Positions 3,294 through 13,797 of a stretch of 38,045 bases of DNA are shown piece after piece. The notes below the pieces were generated by a model. The model worked only from the letters and a program-made list of their open reading frames with translations. It did no database searches and was not told the DNA's origin. Origin of the DNA: a virus (Duplodnaviria > Heunggongvirae > Uroviricota > Caudoviricetes). Where the stretch lies: positions 1 to 38,045 of the IMG/VR virus record IMGVR_UViG_2778261204_000006; one strand, written 5' to 3'. Numbering within the stretch: the first letter of the stretch is position 1; every line of letters starts with the position of its first letter. The position numbers and the translations under genes are program-made.

Positions 3294-3590
3294 TTACTCG
3301 TTCGTGTAAATCACGCCCAGTCGTGCAGCCAGACGTTCCAGTTTTTTCTGTTTGTGGAAGTCAATCAGCCGGTCCATCCCCTGAAGGCGCAACTGCTCTG
3401 TCATGATTTCCACATCTGCCAGCTCTGCCGCGAGGTCACTTTCGCTGCCCTGTCCGTTCAGGTTGCGGGCGGCACTGGCCGCCAGTTCAGCGGCCTCTTC
3501 TGTCAGTTTCAGGGCCTGTGCATCCGGCCCGAAACGCTGCAGGGCCAGACGATAGAGGTCGGTGCGGGTGAGTATGGTGTTCCGTGTCAT
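3294..3590 (-). CDS. hypothetical early protein
   Basis: 98 aa; GAGGG RBS; within the operon-like leftward gene string. Confidence 0.45.
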   Translation of the reverse strand: MTRNTILTRTDLYRLALQRFGPDAQALKLTEEAAELAASAARNLNGQGSESDLAAELADVEIMTEQLRLQGMDRLIDFHKQKKLERLAARLGVIYTNE

Positions 3591-3599
3591 GCCGCGCCC

Positions 3600-3872
3600 T
3601 CAGTGCTTCCGGTCGACGGTGATGTTCAGGTTGCCTTCTGCAGTGGTTTCCATCCGGTACGGCACCTCATGCTTTGCCGTGTGGGTGAGTGTGTTCACCA
3701 GTACCTGCAGGGCAGCCTCCTTTCCGTTGGTCGCCACAATGGCCTGAGCGGCCATGCTGATTAGCGCTGTCAGGACGTGCTTCACATCGGTGAGGTCGCG
3801 GCATTCACACTCGTTGACATAGTGTTCAACAAGGGTTCGGGTGCGCTGTCGTGCTTCCTGTGGGGTAATCAT
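3600..3872 (-). CDS. hypothetical early protein
   Basis: 90 aa; tightly packed with flanking genes. Confidence 0.45.
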   Translation of the reverse strand: MITPQEARQRTRTLVEHYVNECECRDLTDVKHVLTALISMAAQAIVATNGKEAALQVLVNTLTHTAKHEVPYRMETTAEGNLNITVDRKH

Positions 3873-4063
3873 TGCGCGTCCTCCCTGTCAGGGCGGGAGA
3901 ATTCCATGACGGGCACGTCTGCCGAAAAATGCTGGCTGCAGTACGGGCAGACCAGGGTGACGCGTACCGCAGGTATGTGGTACTTACCGGACATCACGGC
4001 GATGGCGCTGTGAAAACGCAGGGCTGTTATATCCCTCTCGCACTGAATACATTTAAATATCAT
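3869..4063 (-). CDS. small zinc-ribbon-like protein
   Basis: 64 aa with CxxC...CPYC cysteine pairs; GAGGAG RBS. Confidence 0.45.
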   Translation of the reverse strand: MIFKCIQCERDITALRFHSAIAVMSGKYHIPAVRVTLVCPYCSQHFSADVPVMEFSRPDREDAQ

Positions 4064-4160
4064 GATTTAATTCTCCTCTGTTTCCGGCGTGCAGAAGCCC
4101 ACGGCGCTGACGCCGGAATAAAAAAGAAAATGTTTTTATTAAATAATTAACGTGGTGTGT

Positions 4161-4691
4161 TTACTGCACATCCTGCTCAAAAGGAATTATTGAAAAATCC
4201 TCAATATCACTTTTTATGGTAATACCGGGAATATTTTTCACGGCGTCTTTTTCATTCAGGATGGCGTCTTTATTTATTTCCTCTTTTACACGAATAAATC
4301 GCTCAAGCCCCAGACGTCTCAGTAGCTCAATAACATTATCCGCCCCGCGAATGCTGACTGACGGTGGACGGTTTCTCCACTGTACCTCGCCGGTGGTGAG
4401 GTTAGCGAACTTCACCTTCCCGTTGCCGGTCAGTTCATCACGGTGTGCCTCACACCATGTCTGGATACCGGACTGCAGTTCTGACATGCGTTTTTTCAGG
4501 CTCTCGGTGAGCGGGGCATAACGTGCGGTGATATCGCCAATGGCGTCATTCATTTCTGTTTCAGCCCTGACCAGTTCACGTTGTGCGTCACCGAGCAGTC
4601 TGATTCCCTCAATGACCTCTTCGCGTGTTCCTGGTACCCAGAGTGCCGCTGCGGACTTGATACGTTTTGCCCCTTTTGTACTTTTTGCCAT
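4161..4691 (-). CDS. Gam-like host-nuclease inhibitor protein
   Basis: About 176 aa from ATG 4691; size and position downstream of the B-like ATPase match Mu Gam; family assignment from recalled similarity. Confidence 0.6.
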   Translation of the reverse strand: MAKSTKGAKRIKSAAALWVPGTREEVIEGIRLLGDAQRELVRAETEMNDAIGDITARYAPLTESLKKRMSELQSGIQTWCEAHRDELTGNGKVKFANLTTGEVQWRNRPPSVSIRGADNVIELLRRLGLERFIRVKEEINKDAILNEKDAVKNIPGITIKSDIEDFSIIPFEQDVQ

Positions 4692-4716: not shown

Positions 4717-4986
4717 TTACCACAAAGATTCCGGCCACACGACGCGACAGCCGTGCAGTTCGAAAACGCCCTGACGGAAATGTCCCCTGTGGTCATGACC
4801 GGTATACAGATAACTGGCTTTCCCCTGTTCAAGCATGCGCATGCAATGCGCACTCCGGGAAACGCGGATGACAGGTTTATTGCCCCTGATGGTGATGCTT
4901 TGTACATCCGTGTTCGTCGCCATAAGCGCCATAATGGCTGACTGCACTTTGCTGATTTGCTGGTTGATACCTGTGATGGATTTCAT
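4717..4986 (-). CDS. hypothetical early protein
   Basis: 89 aa; ATG 2 nt after the stop of the B-like gene. Confidence 0.45.
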   Translation of the reverse strand: MKSITGINQQISKVQSAIMALMATNTDVQSITIRGNKPVIRVSRSAHCMRMLEQGKASYLYTGHDHRGHFRQGVFELHGCRVVWPESLW

Positions 4987-8268: not shown

Positions 8269-9185
8269 TAACGTATGCCCTCCGGTCGGTTGATTTCAGG
8301 CTCCGGTTCGGTCAGCCAGGCGGGGACATCGTTACCCGATGGTGCGGCATCAAGGTCAAACGTCTCACGCAATGCATGAACACTGCGTTCAATCTGGCAG
8401 ACCAGACCGGCCATGAAATCTCTGGGGGTATCAATCATGTGTTCAGCACAATATGCGCACAGCGTCTCAAACGCGCCGGACAGCCGGACGGCGATGGCAG
8501 ATTCCGCCTCAACCGCTAATGCCGTCACTTCCGCCCGCAATTTTTTCAGTTCTTCGTCTGGCGGCGGAGGTTGCAGGCGCGATTTCTTCTCCAGTTTTGT
8601 GGCCAGTTCGTTGATTTTTTCGTCCTTTCCGGCAAGCACCTGTTGCTGAGCTGCGTTGGTTTCGCGCGCTTCACGCAGGGCCTGGCGAAGTTCGCGGCTG
8701 GTCATGCGATCAATATCGTCGAGAGTCATTCCAGCAACCGTGCCGCCGTCAGCCAGTTCGGCAAGATCTTCGTCATCTTCCGTCATTAACTCAAAAAGTT
8801 TGGTTTTCCCCAAATGTGCCAGCGCTGGCACATTTGGTTTCAGCGTCGGGGATAAGTATTTTGTCGATGCCTGCATCATTCGCACAGATGTCCGGTACGC
8901 CAGCCCCAACTCACCTTCAAGAATCTTTATAAACTCCCCATGCGGCTCATTTTCCTTAAGAAGGATCAATCGTTTACCGGCTTCCAGCATTGCTTCCGCG
9001 CTCTGCGCCATATAAAAGCGTGCCTCATGAACAACACGATCGCGCTCATAGGGCAGGCCATCACCGAACAGTTGCATGATCTCCGTGCTGTGTTGTGTCA
9101 TGGCGTTCAGACTGACATTGAGATCATCCGACAGGGGGACCTCGGCGTTCAGTTCAGTGTTAACCAGTGATTTAGTGCGTCCCAT
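8268..9185 (-). CDS. hypothetical early protein (acidic and coiled-coil regions)
   Basis: 305 aa; strong AAGGAG RBS 6 nt before ATG 9185. Confidence 0.5.
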   Translation of the reverse strand: MGRTKSLVNTELNAEVPLSDDLNVSLNAMTQHSTEIMQLFGDGLPYERDRVVHEARFYMAQSAEAMLEAGKRLILLKENEPHGEFIKILEGELGLAYRTSVRMMQASTKYLSPTLKPNVPALAHLGKTKLFELMTEDDEDLAELADGGTVAGMTLDDIDRMTSRELRQALREARETNAAQQQVLAGKDEKINELATKLEKKSRLQPPPPDEELKKLRAEVTALAVEAESAIAVRLSGAFETLCAYCAEHMIDTPRDFMAGLVCQIERSVHALRETFDLDAAPSGNDVPAWLTEPEPEINRPEGIR

Positions 9186-9195
9186 TGATTACTCC

Positions 9196-9504
9196 TTACA
9201 AACGACTACCTGAAATAACTCGCTGGTTGATTTCGTTAATACGATCCTGTGCACGTGCCATCTCGTTACTGTGGGCCATAGCGATCTGCAGTAACTGGAT
9301 GCCCGGCGCGAAACGCCCGTTTTCCAGTTTCAGGGCCAACCCTTCTTCAATGAGGGTGTTGAGTGCCCGGTTGATGTTTGCCGGTGACTCGTGCAGTGCT
9401 GCCGCCAGTTCACCGTTGGAAATACCGTTCAGGGCATGACCACGCAGCGCTTTCAGTACCCGGAGGATGCGACTGCCGGAGCTTGAAACATTCGTCTTAC
9501 TCAT
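9196..9504 (-). CDS. winged-helix DNA-binding regulator (IclR-N-terminal-like fold)
   Basis: ORF 9196..9510; translation SRILRVLKALRGHALNGISNGELAAALHESPANINRALNTLIEEGLAL resembles wHTH domains. Confidence 0.45.
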   Translation of the reverse strand: MSKTNVSSSGSRILRVLKALRGHALNGISNGELAAALHESPANINRALNTLIEEGLALKLENGRFAPGIQLLQIAMAHSNEMARAQDRINEINQRVISGSRL

Positions 9505-9556
9505 CTGCATACCTATTTTTCAATATGTGATAATCTTTTTCGTATGCTGTATCTTT

Positions 9557-9745
9557 TTAAGCGGCGTCAGTGATGGTTTTTAATCCCAGCTTTACAGCGA
9601 TTTCATGGGCTTTGCCATAGTTCGCTTTTACCTGGCCATTCAGTACGCGGTAAACCTCCGCTCTGGTGTAGTTGTTCTGTTTTGCCCACTGGGTAAAAGT
9701 GATCCCATTGCGACGGAAATGAGCTTTGACCTGGTCTGCAGTCAT
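9557..9745 (-). CDS. small DNA-binding protein (Ner/Cro-like early regulator)
   Basis: 62 aa; first gene of the leftward early operon; strong AAGGAG RBS; divergent from the repressor-like gene. Confidence 0.55.
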   Translation of the reverse strand: MTADQVKAHFRRNGITFTQWAKQNNYTRAEVYRVLNGQVKANYGKAHEIAVKLGLKTITDAA

Positions 9746-9797
9746 TGTTGTCTCCTTGTTTGGTGCAATGATGTTTGCGTTATGTGTGATAGATTAT

Positions 9798-9815
9798 TGT
9801 CTAAAAATTTAGACA
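9798..9815. promoter_or_regulatory. palindromic operator candidate TGTCTAAA-AA-TTTAGACA in the divergent regulatory region
   Basis: 8-bp perfect inverted arms with 2-bp spacer, 12 nt upstream of the repressor start. Confidence 0.4.
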
Positions 9816-9826
9816 GAGCAAGTTTT

Positions 9827-10180
9827 ATGTCCATTAATTTAGAAAAAATACATGCGCGTCTCATTTCAGAATTAAAACGTGTTGGTCCTTTGGCGGTATC
9901 TAAGTCCACTGGTATCTCGCGGGCGACGATTTATAACTGGATGGAAAAAGGAAATATCCCGCTAGATAAACTGGTAGTTTTAGGAGCAGCAGGAGTAGAT
10001 GTTGCCTTCATTCTTACGGGTATGAGCACAGATGGTGAGGTGGAAATTCAGAACCGGATATCCCCCGAAAAACAAAAATTAATAGATACTTTTGACGACA
10101 TGACACCAGAGCAACAACGCTCATTTCTTGAGATTGGGCGATTCTATACTCAGCCAAAACCAGGAAAAATCGCAGGCTGA
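9827..10180 (+). CDS. HTH (XRE/Cro-C1 type) repressor-like protein
   Basis: 117 aa from ATG 9827; HTH segment KSTGISRATIYNWMEKGNIP; divergent from the early operon as c is in Mu. Confidence 0.6.
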   Translation: MSINLEKIHARLISELKRVGPLAVSKSTGISRATIYNWMEKGNIPLDKLVVLGAAGVDVAFILTGMSTDGEVEIQNRISPEKQKLIDTFDDMTPEQQRSFLEIGRFYTQPKPGKIAG

Positions 10181-10266
10181 TTCTGACCTGGACACAAAGG
10201 ACAGGTGGTTGATCTGGACGCTTTCAGAAAGCGCCGTCAGTAGCATGGCAGGAATGGGCTGATTTA

Positions 10267-10297
10267 CCGGAAAGCATTGTGCTTTCCGGTTTTGTTT
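10267..10297 (+). terminator. rho-independent terminator downstream of the repressor-like gene
   Basis: CCGGAAAGC / GCTTTCCGG 9-bp stem, 5-nt loop, followed by TTTTGTTT. Confidence 0.5.
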
Positions 10298-11061
10298 CAG
10301 AAGTTGCAGATTACCAGTTCACGGCGCGGCGTGGGTTTCCCCGCCAGACTGTAGTTGATATTCACCGTCTGTATGTTCAGTTCAGTGAACACCCGACGCA
10401 TCTGCGGAATGTCGTTCACCGAGATAATCATCTTTCCTCTGATGCACCGGGCCAGTTCTGCGAGTAGTGTGTAGTTCTCTTCAGGAAAATCCACACCATA
10501 GCCTTCCGTCCCCAGATAGGGCGGATCACAGTAGAACAACGTGTGCGGACGGTCATAACGCTTAATGCACTGGTGCCAGTCCATGTGCTCTATCACCGTT
10601 CTGGAAAGCCGCAGGTGTGCCGCTGACAGTTCTTCTTCAATACGTAGCAGGTTGAAGCGTGGCGGAGATGTGGTGGATGTGCCGAAGCTGTGCTCTGCCA
10701 CCTTGCCACCAAATGCCTGCTTCTGGAGGTAGTAGAACCGTGCCGCACGCTGGATATCCGTCAGTGTTTCTTCCGGGGTGATCTGCAGCCATTTGTAGAT
10801 CTGCCGGCTAACCAGCGCCCATTTGAACTGGCGGATAAATTCTTCCAGGTGATGTTTTACCACCCGGTACAGATTCACCAGTTCACCATTGATATCGTTA
10901 ATGACTTCGAGCTTGCCGGGAGTCTTGAGAAAATAGAGCGCAGCTGCGCCGCAGAACGGCTCCACATAACATTCATGCGCAGGAAACAGCGGCAGGATGT
11001 GTTTTGCCAGGCGGCGTTTGCCACCAATCCATGGAACGATGGGTAATGTCTGCGTTTTCAT
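10297..11061 (-). CDS. Dam-like N6-adenine DNA methyltransferase
   Basis: 254 aa; DPPY catalytic motif (LFYCDPPYLG) and SAM-binding FxGxG-like motif (EPFCGAAA). Confidence 0.85.
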   Translation of the reverse strand: MKTQTLPIVPWIGGKRRLAKHILPLFPAHECYVEPFCGAAALYFLKTPGKLEVINDINGELVNLYRVVKHHLEEFIRQFKWALVSRQIYKWLQITPEETLTDIQRAARFYYLQKQAFGGKVAEHSFGTSTTSPPRFNLLRIEEELSAAHLRLSRTVIEHMDWHQCIKRYDRPHTLFYCDPPYLGTEGYGVDFPEENYTLLAELARCIRGKMIISVNDIPQMRRVFTELNIQTVNINYSLAGKPTPRRELVICNF

Positions 11062-11250
11062 AATCTGTAAGCCTTTTACAATTATTAAAAATATGGCAGG
11101 CTAGTCTGGTCTCGCGAGACTGACTGAACCTTGGTCGGCTCACAGTGCATTCCTGTGGGACGATGGCCAGCCCGGCTTTCGGGTGCCGGGCTGGTCGTTC
11201 TTTCATGATGCGGCAGGGATGAAGTGATTTCTGTTGATGTGGTTTAGGGA

Positions 11251-11466
11251 TTATCCGGGGCGATTTTCTGACCTTATCTGGTCCAGGGCATAAGTGATCC
11301 CTTCTGCAAAAACAGAAGTATCGAACTGCTTTTGTATTTCCTGAAAATGAACAGTGGCACGACAGATACTCAGTTCTCCGCGATGTAACCGGATAATATC
11401 TTCCAGAACATTGTTCACTGCTTCGGCACGGCGCTGATGTTCTGTTAACGTTAATCGGGGATTCAT
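11251..11466 (-). CDS. hypothetical small protein (71 aa); uncertain
   Basis: AAGGAG RBS 6 nt upstream of ATG 11466, but start overlaps the divergent start of the 134-aa ORF. Confidence 0.35.
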   Translation of the reverse strand: MNPRLTLTEHQRRAEAVNNVLEDIIRLHRGELSICRATVHFQEIQKQFDTSVFAEGITYALDQIRSENRPG

Positions 11467-11869
11467 GATGCACTCCTTAAATGATGATTTTTATGTACTC
11501 ACCGGCAAAATATTCTGCCGATTACTGAACACGCATCCGGCACCTCAGGTTTTGATTTATTCTGGTTTTTTCGATATCCCGGACCAGGTTGATCACGACC
11601 AGAAAAAGTGCCGGTATTTTATTGATACGCTGATATGGCTTCGGGATAACAGCTATATTCGTTACTCTCAGTTGCTGGCTGTGGGAGCGGCTGATGTCGT
11701 CCTCACGGAAAAAACGCTCTGTCTGCTCAATGCCATGCCGACCTTTCTGCAGCCCCGGCCCGTACCATTTAAAGAGTCGCTTCTGGATGCAGTAAAAACC
11801 GGTGAAAATGCAGTCATCGCTGAATGCGTATCCCGGATTATGCGTTACGTGTTTAATGAACGTAAGTGA
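11465..11869 (+). CDS. hypothetical protein (134 aa)
   Basis: Exactly fills the gap between minus-strand genes; 3' end overlaps the P-loop gene by 25 nt; looks AT-richer than flanks by eye. Confidence 0.45.
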   Translation: MMHSLNDDFYVLTGKIFCRLLNTHPAPQVLIYSGFFDIPDQVDHDQKKCRYFIDTLIWLRDNSYIRYSQLLAVGAADVVLTEKTLCLLNAMPTFLQPRPVPFKESLLDAVKTGENAVIAECVSRIMRYVFNERK

Positions 11870-12588
11870 GGTTTATCCGCTGTCTGCATAATCCCGATAG
11901 CCAGTGCGAGGGGAAGCAATTCCGGGGAAACTCTTTCAAACAGCGATTCCCATTCTCCTCTCGCCATCACTCTGTCCAGCCCTCCCTCCAGCTGCATTTC
12001 AGCAATCTTCCTGATTTCCCGGAACAACGCCGCTTTGATCTCTTCGTGCTCAGCTTTATTTTCCGGTGTCAGAATGTATTCGTCGAAGAACCGGGGAGGC
12101 TGGTTAACGGGGATTGTGTTCACCGGGATGTGTTCCTGCTTCCCGTACTTCGGGGCCGAAAAACATTCTGTTGGCTGACCGGTGAGTTTACGTAACTCCT
12201 TCATGAGCAGCTCCTGATCGTAAACTGTCATCAGTGCCGCAATGGTGGCATGCAGTGCATCGGGCAGTATCCAGGGTTGCCGGCCCGTGGGGCATATAAC
12301 ATCCAGCAGCTCATTCGTCCGACAGATACGCTCCTCGCCGTATGACAACAGGCCCTGTCCCGTGTATTCCTCCAGCCTGATCACTGTGCCACCCCGTGGC
12401 TTCTGCCAGGTCGTCAGATCATCGCCATTCATACGGCGCTCATTCTCCACGTCAGCAGCATCGACAATGACGCTGTTTCCGAGTTCCTGTTTCACCACTT
12501 CCTCTATCCGCGCCAGTACGTAACTTTTACCGCTGCCCACAGGACCGGACACGGTGACAGTGATGACCGGATTCAGTGTGTGCGTCAT
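11845..12588 (-). CDS. P-loop NTPase/kinase-like protein of unknown function
   Basis: 247 aa; N-terminal Walker A VSGPVGSGKSY; GAGGAG RBS; divergent from the lysis cassette. Confidence 0.55.
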   Translation of the reverse strand: MTHTLNPVITVTVSGPVGSGKSYVLARIEEVVKQELGNSVIVDAADVENERRMNGDDLTTWQKPRGGTVIRLEEYTGQGLLSYGEERICRTNELLDVICPTGRQPWILPDALHATIAALMTVYDQELLMKELRKLTGQPTECFSAPKYGKQEHIPVNTIPVNQPPRFFDEYILTPENKAEHEEIKAALFREIRKIAEMQLEGGLDRVMARGEWESLFERVSPELLPLALAIGIMQTADKPHLRSLNT

Positions 12589-12659
12589 ATCGTATTCTCC
12601 TCTGTGAATAATTCATCGTTTATCCTGCACATCCCGTATCCCCGGCTCTCTTAACGCGC

Positions 12660-12699
12660 TTTAAAATCCTTCGCGCCCCGTATTTGTGATGCTGTCTCC
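12660..12699 (+). promoter_or_regulatory. candidate activator-dependent late promoter (lysis operon)
   Basis: TTTAAAATCC at 12660 and CTGTCTCC at 12692, 32 bp apart; same bipartite motif upstream of three other late units. Confidence 0.4.
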
Positions 12700-12718
12700 A
12701 CCAGACAAGGAGACACAC

Positions 12719-13069
12719 ATGAAAAACCTGAAAAAATTCATTCCCCCTGTTAAAAAACCTCGCCTCAGCGGCTGGCTGCTGACCTCAGTGCTGCTGCTGG
12801 GCACCATCGCTCTGGTATCGCCACAGCAGTTGCCTGTTGTGATCTACAAGCTGGCACTCATCACGCTGGCAGCAGTGCTGGGTTACTGGCTTGACCGTTC
12901 GCTCTTCCCCAAAGCCCGTCCCGGTCAGTACCTGAAACATGACAACAGGCTGATGGCTGAAGGGCGTTTCCCTGTGCAGACCGGCCTGCACCTGGTGTTT
13001 TCTGCTGCGTTAATCCGCCGCGCACTGATTGTTGCAGCAGTCTGTCTGGCTGTGGCAACAGGGCTGTGA
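12719..13069 (+). CDS. putative holin / lysis membrane protein
   Basis: 116 aa from ATG 12719 (AAGGAGA RBS); 2-3 hydrophobic helices; immediately upstream of and overlapping the endolysin. Confidence 0.5.
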   Translation: MKNLKKFIPPVKKPRLSGWLLTSVLLLGTIALVSPQQLPVVIYKLALITLAAVLGYWLDRSLFPKARPGQYLKHDNRLMAEGRFPVQTGLHLVFSAALIRRALIVAAVCLAVATGL

Positions 13070-13071
13070 CC

Positions 13072-13797
13072 ATGAACTGGCCTCAAATCACCCTCATTAT
13101 TCTGTTCGCCTTTGCTCTGGGCGTAACCGCCATCAGACACGGCGAACCACGTAACGATAAATACAGCTTCTGGTGGCAGCTTGCTGGCAACCTGGTGATT
13201 GCCTGGCTGCTCTGGTGTGGCGGCTTTTTCAGTCAGGCATCCGCAGCACAGCCCCCGCGGGCTGCCCTGCAGTATCGCGATGATGTGATCCGTAATGCCC
13301 GCCTTGAATGGGGACTGTCTGCGCCGGTGGCTGATTTCGCTGCGCAACTGCATCAGGAAAGCGGCTGGCGACCTGATGCGATCTCGCCGGTGGGGGCTCA
13401 GGGACTGGCGCAGTTTATGCCTGCCACTGCCGACTGGATAAGCCAGTTGATGCCGGCGCTGAGCAGTCGAGAGCCGTTTAATCCGGCATGGGCTATCCGG
13501 GCGCTGGTCAGTTATGACCGCTGGCTGTGGCAGCGCATCAGCGCCGCCAGTGACTGCGAGCGTATGGCCATGACGCTGTCGGGCTATAACGGGGGTCTTG
13601 GCTGGGTACAGCGGGACAGGCAACTTGCATCACAGAAAGGGCTGGACCGTACCCGCTGGTTCGGACATGTCGCCACGGTGAATGCCGGACGCAATGCTGC
13701 CAGCTGGCGGGAGAACCGTCATTATCCCCGGCGCATCCTGTTCACGCTTGCCCCGCGTTATCTCTCATGGGGAGGGGCAAGCTGTGTGGGTACGTAA
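13072..13797 (+). CDS. lytic transglycosylase (SLT-domain) endolysin with N-terminal hydrophobic segment
   Basis: Motif ESGWRPDAISPVGAQGLAQFMP typical of SLT; N-terminus MNWPQITLIILFAFALGVTAI; alternative GTG start at 13066. Confidence 0.8.
   Translation: MNWPQITLIILFAFALGVTAIRHGEPRNDKYSFWWQLAGNLVIAWLLWCGGFFSQASAAQPPRAALQYRDDVIRNARLEWGLSAPVADFAAQLHQESGWRPDAISPVGAQGLAQFMPATADWISQLMPALSSREPFNPAWAIRALVSYDRWLWQRISAASDCERMAMTLSGYNGGLGWVQRDRQLASQKGLDRTRWFGHVATVNAGRNAASWRENRHYPRRILFTLAPRYLSWGGASCVGT

What the first reader, a model, noticed from the sequence alone, without database searches (positions are those of the whole stretch)
10297..12588. Accessory island between the repressor and the lysis cassette: Dam-like methyltransferase plus an uncharacterised P-loop protein and two small ORFs
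These genes sit at the junction of the two arms and are not part of the structural or transposition core. The 134-aa ORF looks AT-richer than the flanks by eye. The Dam-like enzyme is a plausible anti-restriction function. The 247-aa P-loop protein (Walker A GPVGSGKSY) converges on and overlaps the 134-aa ORF by 25 nt, an arrangement compatible with a toxin/antitoxin, abortive-infection or other defence or counter-defence pair. I could not place either protein in a family from sequence alone, so this is the strongest candidate here for an undescribed system.
Basis: partly seen in the sequence, partly recalled or inferred. Interest (0 to 1): 0.65.

Follow-up and report, generated by a model that had tools for sequence, protein, structure and literature searches.

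The report
Swappable cargo cassette in Mu-like prophage
The region is a real, exchangeable accessory cassette in a fixed slot of a BcepMu-like transposable prophage found in about 12% of complete E. coli genomes, but its three non-methylase genes match no known toxin-antitoxin or defence system and their function is still unknown.

Summary
All four ORFs exist as described, including the Walker A motif, the 25-nt convergent overlap and the lower GC of the 134-aa gene.

The window is a BcepMu-like (Bcepmuvirus) transposable prophage. Comparison with relatives defines a cargo slot at 11206-12647. It lies between a conserved + strand terminator hairpin and a conserved element just upstream of the holin. 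In relatives this slot is empty or holds other genes. The Dam gene lies outside the slot and is semi-conserved backbone.

- **134-aa protein:** a winged-helix protein. Its constant partner is the 71-aa gene, not the P-loop protein. The two are encoded head-to-head with overlapping start codons, as in 43 of 43 P2-like relatives, where the pair sits in the GpA-GpQ defence hotspot.
- **247-aa protein:** a recombinant chimera. It joins a ~75-residue mini P-loop domain with no Pfam family, which also occurs as stand-alone 68-90-aa phage proteins, to shuffled C-terminal modules. It is not a canonical NTPase.
- **Toxin-antitoxin reading:** natural variants delete or interrupt the 134-aa gene while the 247-aa gene stays intact, which argues against a 134/247 toxin-antitoxin pair.
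- **Known defence systems:** only the methylase matched a PADLOC model convincingly.

Verdict: a genuine accessory cassette of unknown, probably conflict-related, function. It is a moderate lead for experiments, not a demonstrated new system.

The parts
10266..10290 (+). Terminator-like hairpin after the repressor gene. The 116-nt repressor-dam gap is a second cargo slot. It is empty here and occupied in relatives.
   Evidence: The terminator scan found 11 pairs and a T-run. KP12 has a 177-aa ORF here, and DLI.5a has NA37 plus a 401-aa ORF.
10297..11061 (-). Orphan D12-class (Dam-family) N6-adenine DNA methyltransferase, 254 aa. It is semi-conserved backbone and is not part of the exchangeable cargo.
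   Evidence: PF02086 scores 9.6e-29, phrog_56 scores 6e-99 and PADLOC MTase_II scores 1e-110. TIGR00571 scores 114.0 against a cut-off of 114.85. The DPPY motif is present. pN/pS is 0.05-0.19. The gene is present beside empty or different slots.
11155..11206 (+). Conserved strong hairpin followed by TCGTTCTTTC. It is a + strand terminator that marks the left border of the cargo slot.
   Evidence: Folding gives -36.4 kcal/mol with z = -4.6. The arms are perfect 10-nt repeats (I4). The hairpin is conserved in the E. coli empty-slot prophage, KP12 and Serratia. Changes there keep pairing on the + strand: A-U becomes U-G. Homology to relatives ends at 11203-11206.
11206..12647 (.). The exchangeable cargo cassette, 1442 nt, GC 50.2%.
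   Evidence: blastn junctions against DLI.5a (empty, 32 nt between the flanks), KP12 and Serratia. Alignments of both junctions. GC. Synonymous divergence is lower than in the flanking genes.
11251..11466 (-). 71-aa helical protein (phrog_4490). It is the constant partner of the winged-helix gene and has a good ribosome-binding site (AAGGAG, 6-nt spacer).
   Evidence: phrog_4490 scores 7e-51. The Serratia 73-aa homologue is 35% identical. The ribosome-binding site was read from the sequence. There is no Pfam, PADLOC or PDB match.
11465..11869 (+). 134-aa winged-helix protein (phrog_2266). Its start codon overlaps that of the 71-aa gene (CATG at 11464-11467). The true start may be the second ATG at 11468.
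11845..12078 (-). C-terminal module of the 247-aa protein (about residues 171-247). It is homologous to the stand-alone 89-aa Serratia protein and overlaps the 3' end of the winged-helix gene by 25 nt.
   Evidence: blastp of the Serratia 89-aa protein against the 247-aa protein gives 48% identity over 54 aa, E = 3e-11. Translation. The same module occurs in P0041, P0050 and P0055.
12079..12360 (-). Variable middle modules of the 247-aa protein (about residues 77-170). Residues 53-124 are absent in 182-aa E. coli variants.
   Evidence: Alignment A1. Shuffled modules are shared with P0036, P0038, P0064 and P0077.
12361..12588 (-). N-terminal mini P-loop domain of the 247-aa protein (residues 1-76). 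It has Walker A G15-S22, invariant W61, P64 and E74, and a possible Walker B VIRLEE at 69-74. The ribosome-binding site GAGGAG lies upstream.
   Evidence: 54 proteins scored E <= 0.001 among 1.84 billion representatives; apart from fragments of the 247-aa protein itself and two repeat-protein false positives, they match only residues 1 to about 75. Alignment A2. Stand-alone proteins of 68-90 aa exist. No Pfam family reaches threshold. The PDB profile search matches only beta1-P-loop-alpha1.
12651..12666 (+). Conserved element TTAACGCGCTTTAAAA at the right border of the slot, upstream of the holin ATG (12719). It is presumed to be the late (Mor-dependent) promoter or operator region.
   Evidence: It is conserved in the window, the empty-slot E. 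coli prophage, KP12 and Serratia. Homology to relatives resumes at 12648-12652. A Mor-family activator is encoded at 973-1359. The promoter role is inferred.

Best explanation
The finding covers two different things.

**1. The methylase.** Dam (10297-11061) is an orphan D12-class adenine methylase. It belongs to the semi-conserved backbone of enterobacterial BcepMu-like transposable prophages.

**2. The cargo cassette.** Bases 11206-12647 are a mobile accessory ('moron'-type) cassette. It sits in a fixed slot between a + strand terminator hairpin and the conserved element upstream of the holin/late operon. The cassette has two parts.
- (a) A two-gene module that always occurs together: a 134-aa winged-helix protein and a ~70-aa helical partner. 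They are encoded head-to-head with overlapping start codons, so each gene's promoter and 5' leader must lie inside the other gene. This module also sits in the GpA-GpQ defence hotspot of P2-like phages.
- (b) A 247-aa recombinant protein. It joins a ~75-residue mini P-loop domain, common as the first gene next to the holin in this phage group, to the C-terminal module that travels with the winged-helix pair.

**Shown:** the slot and its borders, cargo turnover, recent spread of this cassette among diverged E. coli prophages, the winged-helix fold, the modular chimeric nature of the P-loop protein, and the dispensability of the 134-aa gene.

**Inferred:**
- The cassette is expressed independently of the late operon, leftwards together with dam.
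- The winged-helix protein and its small partner act as one unit, and their opposed transcription makes their expression mutually antagonistic.
- The cassette serves phage-host or phage-phage conflict (exclusion, defence or counter-defence) rather than phage propagation.
For: **Identity of the prophage.**
- 94% identity to Escherichia phage PhiKM (Bcepmuvirus) and 95-96% to E. coli prophages.
- Mor, GemA, Gam, transposase B and A on the left arm; holin and SLT on the right.

**Slot borders.** Homology to the empty-slot prophage DLI.5a, to KP12 and to Serratia stops at 11203-11206 and resumes at 12648-12652. The junction alignments show the conserved hairpin and the TTAACGCnnTTTAAAA element. 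The hairpin is strong at -36.4 kcal/mol, z = -4.6.

**Turnover in the slot.**
- Empty in DLI.5a.
- A DUF2441 188-aa gene in KP12.
- 73-, 139- and 89-aa genes in Serratia.
- Other cargo in L031-L034.
- gp18-gp20 in BcepMu.

**Recent spread.**
- 635 of 5426 complete E. coli genomes carry the cargo, 593 of them at 95-99% identity. The adjacent lysis region is only 80-90% identical in 511 genomes.
- pS is 0.01-0.09 in the cargo against 0.19-0.26 for dam at the same E. coli-type loci.

**The pair.** The head-to-head layout occurs in E. coli (2-nt overlap), Serratia (adjacent), and in Midge, ST147-VIM1phi7.1 and 43 of 43 P2-like viral contigs (2-nt overlap).

**Hotspot location.** The P2 GpA-GpQ interval is the main P2 defence hotspot (PMC13586616). 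Neighbours of the pair there include a 316-aa protein carrying the YVDD motif typical of reverse transcriptases (annotated 'polymerase' in ST147-VIM1phi7.1) and a TM protein with a DUF6864 protein.

**Fold.** Winged helix.

**Chimera.** The N-domain alone is shared with 200-360-aa mosaic proteins and with 68-90-aa stand-alone proteins. The C-module corresponds to the Serratia 89-aa protein. Recombination junctions lie inside the gene (L033 homology ends at 12188).
Against: - Function is not shown by anything here. There is no hit to a known defence, anti-defence or toxin family for the three proteins. Foldseek against viral structures gave nothing significant.
- No convincing sigma-70 promoter was found for any of the three genes, with 8 of 12 matches at best. 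Independent expression and the face-to-face promoter arrangement are therefore inferred only from gene geometry.
- None of the alternative cargos sampled in this slot is a recognised defence system either. The slot is a cargo hotspot, but it is not shown to be a defence hotspot.
- The structure model of the 247-aa protein is poor (pLDDT 41). The mini-domain fold and any nucleotide binding are therefore unverified.
- The small partner proteins of the BcepMu-type and P2-type modules are not detectably homologous in sequence.
Confidence: 0.6

Rival explanations
1. One reading: the 247-aa P-loop protein and the 134-aa protein form a toxin-antitoxin or abortive-infection pair. The convergent 25-nt overlap would couple their expression.
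For: The convergent overlap is real, and a similar overlap (37 nt) is kept in Serratia. The 134-aa protein has a winged-helix fold, as some antitoxins do. Both proteins are accessory and uncharacterised.
Against: - In L013 and L019, 318 bp of the 134-aa gene are deleted. In L023 the gene carries a stop codon. In all three, the 247-aa, 71-aa and dam genes are intact.
- The Serratia counterpart has no P-loop domain at all.
- The 134-aa family travels with the small head-to-head gene, not with a P-loop protein, in all 43 P2-like loci examined.
- P-loop N-domain proteins occur next to the holin with quite different neighbours, or with none.
- The genes are not co-transcribed.
- There are no PADLOC or toxin-family hits.
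Confidence: 0.07
2. The winged-helix protein is a DNA-binding transcription regulator and the 71-aa protein is its antagonist or co-regulator. Together they would form a small genetic switch, analogous to the face-to-face C/Cox or CI/Apl switches of P2 and 186. The switch would control neighbouring cargo, dam or the adjacent late promoter.
For: - The best structural neighbours include MarR, PadR, CodY and TubR DNA-binding domains.
- A perfect 10-bp palindrome, TTAACGTTAA, lies 10 nt upstream of the 134-aa start. It resembles the TTAACGC half of the conserved holin-upstream element (sequence).
- The overlapping divergent starts force opposed promoters, as in P2-type switches (own knowledge of P2 and 186).
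- The pair flanks variable cargo in P2-like phages.
Against: - The family is acidic (median pI 4.76), which is atypical for DNA binders. The window copy is neutral.
- No HTH Pfam family matches at E <= 0.1.
- A solo paralogue occurs without any partner or cargo in L020.
- The gene can be lost without loss of its neighbours.
Confidence: 0.22
3. The leftward genes (247-aa, 71-aa, dam) form a counter-defence operon. Dam would protect phage DNA from restriction. The acidic small proteins would inhibit or sequester host defence components, for example as a nucleotide-binding sponge or decoy built on the mini P-loop.
For: - The genes are co-oriented with dam, and the hairpin has no T-run on the - strand, so it should not terminate leftward transcription.
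- All three cargo proteins are acidic or neutral (pI 5.2, 6.3 and 6.8).
- The mini P-loop keeps GxxGxGK[S/T] and an invariant Trp, Pro and Glu, and it exists as a free-standing 68-90-aa phage protein.
- The PDB profile search matches a designed minimal 'phosphate-loop protein', 6c2u.
Against: - Nothing links these proteins to any known anti-defence family.
- Some family members have GKN instead of GKS/T in the Walker A motif.
- The promoter and timing of expression are unknown.
- The host already has Dam if the target is GATC (own knowledge).
Confidence: 0.15
4. The genes are ordinary conserved phage genes with a role in the lytic cycle, such as lysis timing, late regulation or DNA handling.
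For: The genes sit next to the lysis and late operon. The cassette is highly conserved in hundreds of E. coli genomes.
Against: - Related prophages have an empty slot or unrelated genes between identical flanks.
- BcepMu itself lacks all of these genes.
- A Mor-family late activator is encoded elsewhere.
- The high conservation reflects low synonymous divergence, meaning recent spread, rather than ancient core status.
Confidence: 0.03

Closest known systems
Prophage 'morons' and accessory-gene hotspots (regions of genomic plasticity in Mu-like phages; the GpA-GpQ and other hotspots of P2-like phages)
   Same: There are fixed borders in the conserved backbone and different unrelated cargo between them in relatives, including an empty state. 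GC is lower than in the flanks. Orientation is opposite to the neighbouring late operon. The winged-helix pair itself recurs inside the P2 GpA-GpQ hotspot.
   Different: No cargo sampled in this BcepMu-type slot is a recognised defence or virulence gene. The cassette's own promoter and terminator could not be identified.
Orphan phage Dam-family (D12 class) adenine methyltransferases
   Same: The gene matches PF02086 and has the DPPY motif. No nuclease partner is nearby. It is encoded by a phage.
   Different: It scores just under the TIGR00571 'dam' cut-off and far under the E. coli Dam equivalog. Target sequence and role are unknown.
P-loop NTPases (Walker A/B ATPases such as ABC, AAA+ and PilT; some records annotate truncated copies as 'ABC transporter ATPase')
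   Same: It has a canonical Walker A, GPVGSGKS, after a beta-strand and before a helix. A hydrophobic strand ending in EE (residues 69-74) could serve as Walker B.
   Different: Similarity covers only about 30-40 residues (beta1-P-loop-alpha1). No family reaches its gathering score. The conserved unit is only ~75 residues and exists as 68-90-aa proteins. Some members have GKN. The 'ABC transporter ATPase' label is not justified.
Winged-helix proteins of the YjcQ/DUF2513 type and MarR/PadR-like regulators
   Same: The fold is a winged helix. One Serratia homologue is labelled DUF2513 by UniRef, and YjcQ appears among the Foldseek matches.
   Different: There is no Pfam hit to DUF2513 or any HTH family at E <= 0.1. 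The family is acidic. It has extra C-terminal helices and an invariable head-to-head small partner gene.
Face-to-face promoter switches of P2 (C/Cox) and 186 (CI/Apl)
   Same: These are divergent genes whose promoters must fire towards each other. The setting is a temperate phage (geometry; P2 and 186 from own knowledge).
   Different: The start codons actually overlap, leaving no intergenic operator region. There is no sequence similarity to C, Cox, CI or Apl. Promoters have not been mapped.

Membership tests
D12-class (Dam family) N6-adenine DNA methyltransferase | Match to the family profile above the curated threshold | tested here: met
   PF02086 scores 101.3 bits against a cut-off of 22. 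phrog_56 scores 6e-99. PADLOC MTase_II PDLC03253 scores 1e-110.
D12-class (Dam family) N6-adenine DNA methyltransferase | Catalytic DPPY motif | tested here: met
   FYCDPPYLG is present in the translation.
D12-class (Dam family) N6-adenine DNA methyltransferase | GATC specificity (true Dam) | tested here: inconclusive
   TIGR00571 scores 114.0 against a cut-off of 114.85. The E. coli Dam equivalog NF008152 scores 65.7 against 441. Specificity needs a methylome experiment.
P-loop NTPase | Walker A GxxxxGK[ST] | tested here: met
   G15-PVGSGKS-22. G15, G20 and K21 are invariant in alignment A2. A minority of relatives have GKN.
P-loop NTPase | Membership of a described NTPase family (profile above threshold, full alpha/beta core with Walker B) | tested here: not met
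   The best Pfam hits (AAA_30, KAP, AAA_22) are all below their gathering scores and cover about 30-40 residues. The conserved region is ~75 residues, and 182-aa variants lack residues 53-124. The PDB profile search matches only beta1-P-loop-alpha1. A Walker-B-like VIRLEE with invariant E74 is only a candidate.
Type II toxin-antitoxin pair (247-aa plus 134-aa) | Adjacent co-transcribed genes, with the antitoxin indispensable while the toxin is intact | tested here: not met
   The genes are convergent. The 134-aa gene is deleted or interrupted with the 247-aa gene intact in L013, L019 and L023.
Known anti-phage defence systems (PADLOC-DB v2.0.0) | Profile match of component proteins | tested here: not met
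   No hit for the 71-aa or 134-aa protein at E <= 0.1. The 247-aa protein has only P-loop noise (E >= 0.014). Only the methylase matches.
Winged-helix fold (YjcQ/DUF2513-like) | Winged-helix topology in a confident model | tested here: met
Winged-helix fold (YjcQ/DUF2513-like) | Sequence match to Pfam DUF2513 | tested here: not met
   There is no Pfam hit at E <= 0.1. The DUF2513 label comes only from UniRef's name for the Serratia homologue.
Prophage accessory cargo ('moron') at a hotspot | Conserved flanks with variable or absent content in related phages | tested here: met
   Junctions lie at 11205/11206 and 12647/12648. Empty, KP12, Serratia and other states are documented.
Prophage accessory cargo ('moron') at a hotspot | Own promoter and terminator; expression in the lysogen | tested here: inconclusive
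   Only weak promoter-like matches were found. Transcript mapping is needed.

The most novel reading that the evidence does not exclude
The cassette could encode two undescribed functional units.

1. A natural, autonomous ~75-residue mini P-loop domain that binds nucleotides or nucleic acid on its own. It would be a natural counterpart of designed 'phosphate-loop' prototypes, used by phages as a sensor, sponge or decoy and fused to interchangeable C-terminal modules.

2. A two-gene winged-helix plus small-protein module whose overlapping divergent start codons create a mutually exclusive expression switch. This module would act as a new exclusion, defence or counter-defence unit shared by BcepMu-like and P2-like phages.
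Probability: 0.18. Interest if true: 0.7.

Novelty: new member of a known kind. Interest (0 to 1): 0.42.

Why it matters
The cassette is common. It is present in about 12% of complete E. coli genomes, including ST131 strains such as EC958, and it is everywhere annotated as hypothetical.

It has spread recently across diverged prophages, which suggests a selectable benefit.

The analysis defines an exact cargo slot in BcepMu-like phages, between a terminator and the conserved element upstream of the holin. This slot can be mined systematically, as was done for the P2 and P4 hotspots.

Two testable units emerge:
- A strictly conserved head-to-head winged-helix/small-protein pair that also sits in the P2 defence hotspot.
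- A family of mini P-loop proteins with no Pfam family.

If either has a conflict-related activity, it would add a new component to phage-host biology. If not, the locus is one more uncharacterised moron.

Tried and rejected
- **Structure of the 247-aa protein.** The AlphaFold2 model built from a shallow alignment was unusable (pLDDT 41), so no fold search was run on it.
- **Unavailable library.** The afdb50 fold library was not available.
- **Genome-contig scan.** The scan with the N-domain alignment first failed because no stretch was conserved enough. The second attempt was swamped by generic Walker A matches. It gave two loci, one of them a PilT-type false positive.
- **False positives.** Two large repeat proteins in the representative search (P0054, P0068) were inspected and discarded.
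- **PDB sequence searches.** Searches with the 71-aa protein, the C-terminal 171 residues of the 247-aa protein and the winged-helix profile found nothing meaningful.
- **RNA families.** The Rfam scan of 9000-13300 found nothing.
- **Repeats at the cargo borders.** Only short, chance-level repeats were found. A 10-nt exact repeat, TTCATGATGC, is about what is expected by chance in 1.6 kb.
- **M.EcoGII.** I considered whether the methylase is a relative of M.EcoGII. I rejected this because that enzyme is described as a beta-class methyltransferase (abstract of PMC7544214, listed), whereas this one matches the D12/Dam profile PF02086.
- **Late activator.** I considered whether the winged-helix protein is the late activator. 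I rejected this because a Mor-family protein is encoded at 973-1359.
- **Literature.** Searches by RefSeq protein accession and by DUF2513 returned nothing relevant.


Full report
**1. The observation**

The four ORFs are present exactly as described:
- Dam-like gene, 10297-11061 (-), 254 aa.
- 71-aa ORF, 11251-11466 (-).
- 134-aa ORF, 11465-11869 (+).
- 247-aa ORF, 11845-12588 (-), with GPVGSGKSY at residues 15-23.

The 134-aa and 247-aa ORFs converge and overlap by 25 nt (11845-11869). The 134-aa and 71-aa genes are AT-richer than the window: GC is 46.2% and 44.9% against 54.9%.

All four are real genes.
- Each unknown ORF matches a PHROG of unknown function over its full length: phrog_4490, phrog_2266 and phrog_3787.
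- Serratia prophages encode recognisable protein homologues in the same layout.
- Substitutions are biased towards synonymous sites. pN/pS is 0.05-0.19 for dam and 0.17-0.31 for the 247-aa gene. The two small genes have too few changes to judge.

**2. The setting**

The window is a BcepMu-like transposable prophage. Its closest isolated phage is Escherichia phage PhiKM (Bcepmuvirus, 94% identity), and related prophages occur in 636 of 5426 complete E. coli genomes.
- The left arm, on the - strand, carries a Ner-like HTH gene, an IclR-type HTH gene, a DUF3102 gene, transposase A (rve), transposase B (AAA_22), Gam, GemA and Mor.
- The right arm, on the + strand, starts with a holin (PF13272) and an SLT endolysin.
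- The finding therefore does lie at the junction of the two arms, just after the repressor.

**3. A precisely bounded cargo slot**

I compared the window by blastn with related prophages.
- Homology ends at 11203-11206 and resumes at 12648-12652 in three independent relatives: an E. coli prophage with nothing in between (DLI.5a, 32 nt between the flanks), Klebsiella phage KP12 and Serratia prophages.
- The left border is the 3' end of a strong conserved hairpin followed by TCGTTCTTTC (11155-11206). It folds at -36.4 kcal/mol with z = -4.6. Substitutions in relatives keep pairing on the + strand. It reads as a + strand terminator.
- The right border is the conserved element TTAACGCGCTTTAAAA (12651-12666), about 50 nt upstream of the holin ATG at 12719. 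I take it to belong to the late promoter, but this is an inference.
- The exchangeable unit is therefore 11206-12647. It holds the 71-, 134- and 247-aa genes.

The dam gene lies outside the slot. It is present beside empty and differently filled slots. It is absent from L032 and from BcepMu itself. I treat it as semi-conserved backbone.

The contents of the slot differ between relatives:

| Relative | Slot content |
|---|---|
| E. coli DLI.5a | nothing |
| KP12 | a DUF2441 protein on the + strand |
| Serratia | 73-aa, 139-aa and 89-aa genes |
| L033 | a 141-aa P-loop protein plus a 173-aa protein with paired CxxC motifs |
| L031 | a 291-aa P-loop protein plus two small ORFs |
| L034 | a 151-aa P-loop protein only |
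| L032 | a 314-aa P-loop protein plus a DUF7424 lipoprotein |

BcepMu has gp18-gp20 on the + strand between its repressor and holin.

**4. Recent spread**

The cargo segment is found in 635 complete E. coli genomes and is 95-99% identical in 593 of them. The adjacent lysis region is only 80-90% identical in 511 genomes. At the same E. coli-type loci, synonymous divergence is 0.01-0.09 in the cargo genes against 0.19-0.26 in dam. The cassette has therefore moved recently between already diverged prophages.

**5. The 134-aa protein and its true partner**

The family is confined to Enterobacterales. An AlphaFold2 model from a 32-sequence alignment is usable (pLDDT 73.9).
- Foldseek against PDB and viral models gives nothing significant.
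- No Pfam HTH family or DUF2513 matches at E <= 0.1.
- The family is acidic, with median pI 4.76. The window copy has pI 6.8. This fits a protein-binding winged helix as well as, or better than, a DNA binder.

Its constant neighbour is a small helical protein encoded head-to-head.
- In the window the two start codons overlap, as CATG at 11464-11467.
- In Serratia the genes abut.
- In the P2-like phages Midge and ST147-VIM1phi7.1, in Salmonella prophages and in 43 of 43 P2-like viral contigs, a 63-64-aa gene overlaps the winged-helix start by the same 2 nt.
- The P2-type small proteins are not detectably similar in sequence to the 71-aa protein, so it is the arrangement that is conserved.

In P2-like phages the pair lies between GpA and the portal GpQ. 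A recent survey identifies this interval as the main P2 defence hotspot (PMC13586616). Its neighbours there include the following:
- a 316-aa protein carrying the YVDD motif typical of reverse transcriptases, annotated 'polymerase' in ST147-VIM1phi7.1;
- DinI-like proteins;
- a membrane protein with a DUF6864 protein.

One E. coli prophage (L020) carries a second, solo paralogue beside dam.

**6. The 247-aa protein is a chimera**

An exhaustive HMMER search of 1.84 billion representatives found 54 proteins with E <= 0.001. Apart from fragments of the 247-aa protein itself and two repeat-protein false positives, they share only residues 1 to about 75.
- This N-domain has the order strand, GxxGxGK[S/T], helix, strand, loop with invariant W61 and P64, then a strand ending in invariant E74.
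- It heads mosaic proteins of 200-360 aa whose C-terminal segments are shuffled.
- It also occurs alone as 68-90-aa phage proteins.
- No Pfam family reaches threshold.
- A profile search of PDB sequences matches only the beta1-P-loop-alpha1 element of ABC and other NTPases, together with a designed 'phosphate-loop protein', 6c2u.
- Some relatives have GKN in place of GKS/T.
- E. coli 182-aa variants lack residues 53-124.
- The C-terminal ~75 residues are homologous to the free-standing 89-aa Serratia protein, which converges on the Serratia winged-helix gene.
- In four other sampled BcepMu-like prophages an N-domain protein is the first gene next to the holin, and recombination junctions fall inside the gene.

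The 'P-loop protein' is thus a recombinant of a resident mini P-loop gene and the C-module gene of an incoming cassette. The label 'ABC transporter ATPase', attached to truncated copies in RefSeq, is unfounded. The full-length structure model was poor (pLDDT 41).

**7. Tests of the toxin-antitoxin and defence reading**

- PADLOC matched none of the three proteins convincingly.
- In L013 and L019 a clean 318-bp deletion (window 11519-11836) removes most of the 134-aa gene. In L023 the gene carries a stop codon. In all three, the 247-aa, 71-aa and dam genes are intact.
- Together with the absence of the P-loop domain in Serratia, and the pairing of the 134-aa gene with the 71-aa gene, this argues against a 134/247 toxin-antitoxin or Abi pair.
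- None of the alternative cargos sampled in this slot is a recognised defence gene.

**8. How it most likely works**

Shown: a mobile accessory cassette in a fixed slot. It consists of an obligate winged-helix/small-protein pair plus a chimeric mini-P-loop protein, next to a backbone orphan methylase.

Inferred from geometry:
- The 247-aa and 71-aa genes are co-oriented with dam.
- The border hairpin has no T-run on the - strand, so leftward transcription can continue into dam.
- The 134-aa gene is transcribed against this flow.
- Because the 134-aa and 71-aa start codons overlap, each promoter and leader must lie inside the other gene. Expression of the two should therefore interfere, as in the face-to-face switches of P2 and 186 (own knowledge).

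Inferred from context (hotspot location in two phage lineages, recent sweep, dispensability, acidic proteins): the role is in phage-host or phage-phage conflict rather than in propagation.

No promoter better than 8 of 12 consensus matches was found, and no RNA family matches.

**9. Verdict**

The 'accessory island' reading is supported and sharpened. The specific 'P-loop plus 134-aa toxin/antitoxin or Abi pair' reading is not supported.

The locus is a new member of a known kind: prophage cargo at a hotspot. It is made of uncharacterised protein families. It is a reasonable experimental lead because it is frequent and carries two unusual features, the strictly conserved overlapping divergent starts and the mini P-loop domain. 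Nothing here shows a new mechanism.

Noticed in passing
window 10181-10296; L002 2361-2894; L041 1025-3240: A second variable slot lies between the repressor and the 3' end of dam. It is empty in the window, holding only a terminator-like hairpin at 10266-10290. KP12 has a 177-aa ORF there. E. coli DLI.5a has an NA37 nucleoid-associated protein plus a 401-aa protein with weak similarity to Kiwa KwaA (E = 8e-5).
   Followed up: partly
L013 and L019 (junction at about locus 4746-4752), corresponding to window 11519-11836: A natural 318-bp (106-codon) deletion inside the 134-aa winged-helix gene occurs in two viral contigs. The 247-aa, 71-aa and dam genes are intact. A third contig (L023) has a stop codon in the same gene.
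   Followed up: yes
L020 5588-6052 (- strand in the locus): One E. coli prophage carries a second, solo paralogue of the winged-helix protein (27% identity to the 134-aa protein). It is inserted between the border hairpin and dam, without a small partner gene.
   Followed up: partly
L060, L061, L066, L067, L073, L082, L083, L086, L087 (about 3530-4500); L009 4056-5006: In many P2-like loci the gene converging on the winged-helix homologue encodes a 316-aa protein with a YVDD motif typical of reverse transcriptases (annotated 'polymerase' in ST147-VIM1phi7.1). This would fit a defence-associated reverse transcriptase in the GpA-GpQ hotspot. No profile search was run on it.
   Followed up: no
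window 9605-10180: The 191-aa repressor ORF is probably over-extended. The RefSeq homologue is 115 aa (L003 2339-2686), which corresponds to a start at the internal ATG at 9827 (MSINLEKIH...). That would leave about 80 nt of divergent control region facing the Ner-like gene (9557-9745).
   Followed up: partly
window 12686-13069: The holin ORF listed from GTG at 12686 most likely starts at ATG 12719. That ATG is preceded by AAGGAG at 12707-12712, and RefSeq homologues are 116 aa.
   Followed up: partly
window 11445-11454: A perfect 10-bp palindrome, TTAACGTTAA, lies 10 nt upstream of the 134-aa start and inside the 5' end of the 71-aa gene. Its half-site resembles the conserved TTAACGC element upstream of the holin (12651-12657). 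It could be an operator or a coincidence.
   Followed up: no
L040 (E. coli 510016) and viral contigs L012, L014-L018: Several prophage copies are remnants cut within the 247-aa gene at about codon 157. In L040 an IS1 lies just beyond the cut. The surviving N-terminal fragment is the protein that RefSeq names 'ABC transporter ATPase'.
   Followed up: partly
L008, L009, L043, L060, L073: about 95-125 nt inside the winged-helix gene, - strand: A recurrent weak promoter-like match (TAGTCA, 16 nt, TAAATT) lies inside the P2-type winged-helix genes and points towards the small partner gene. It may be the partner's promoter, or it may reflect coding conservation.
   Followed up: no
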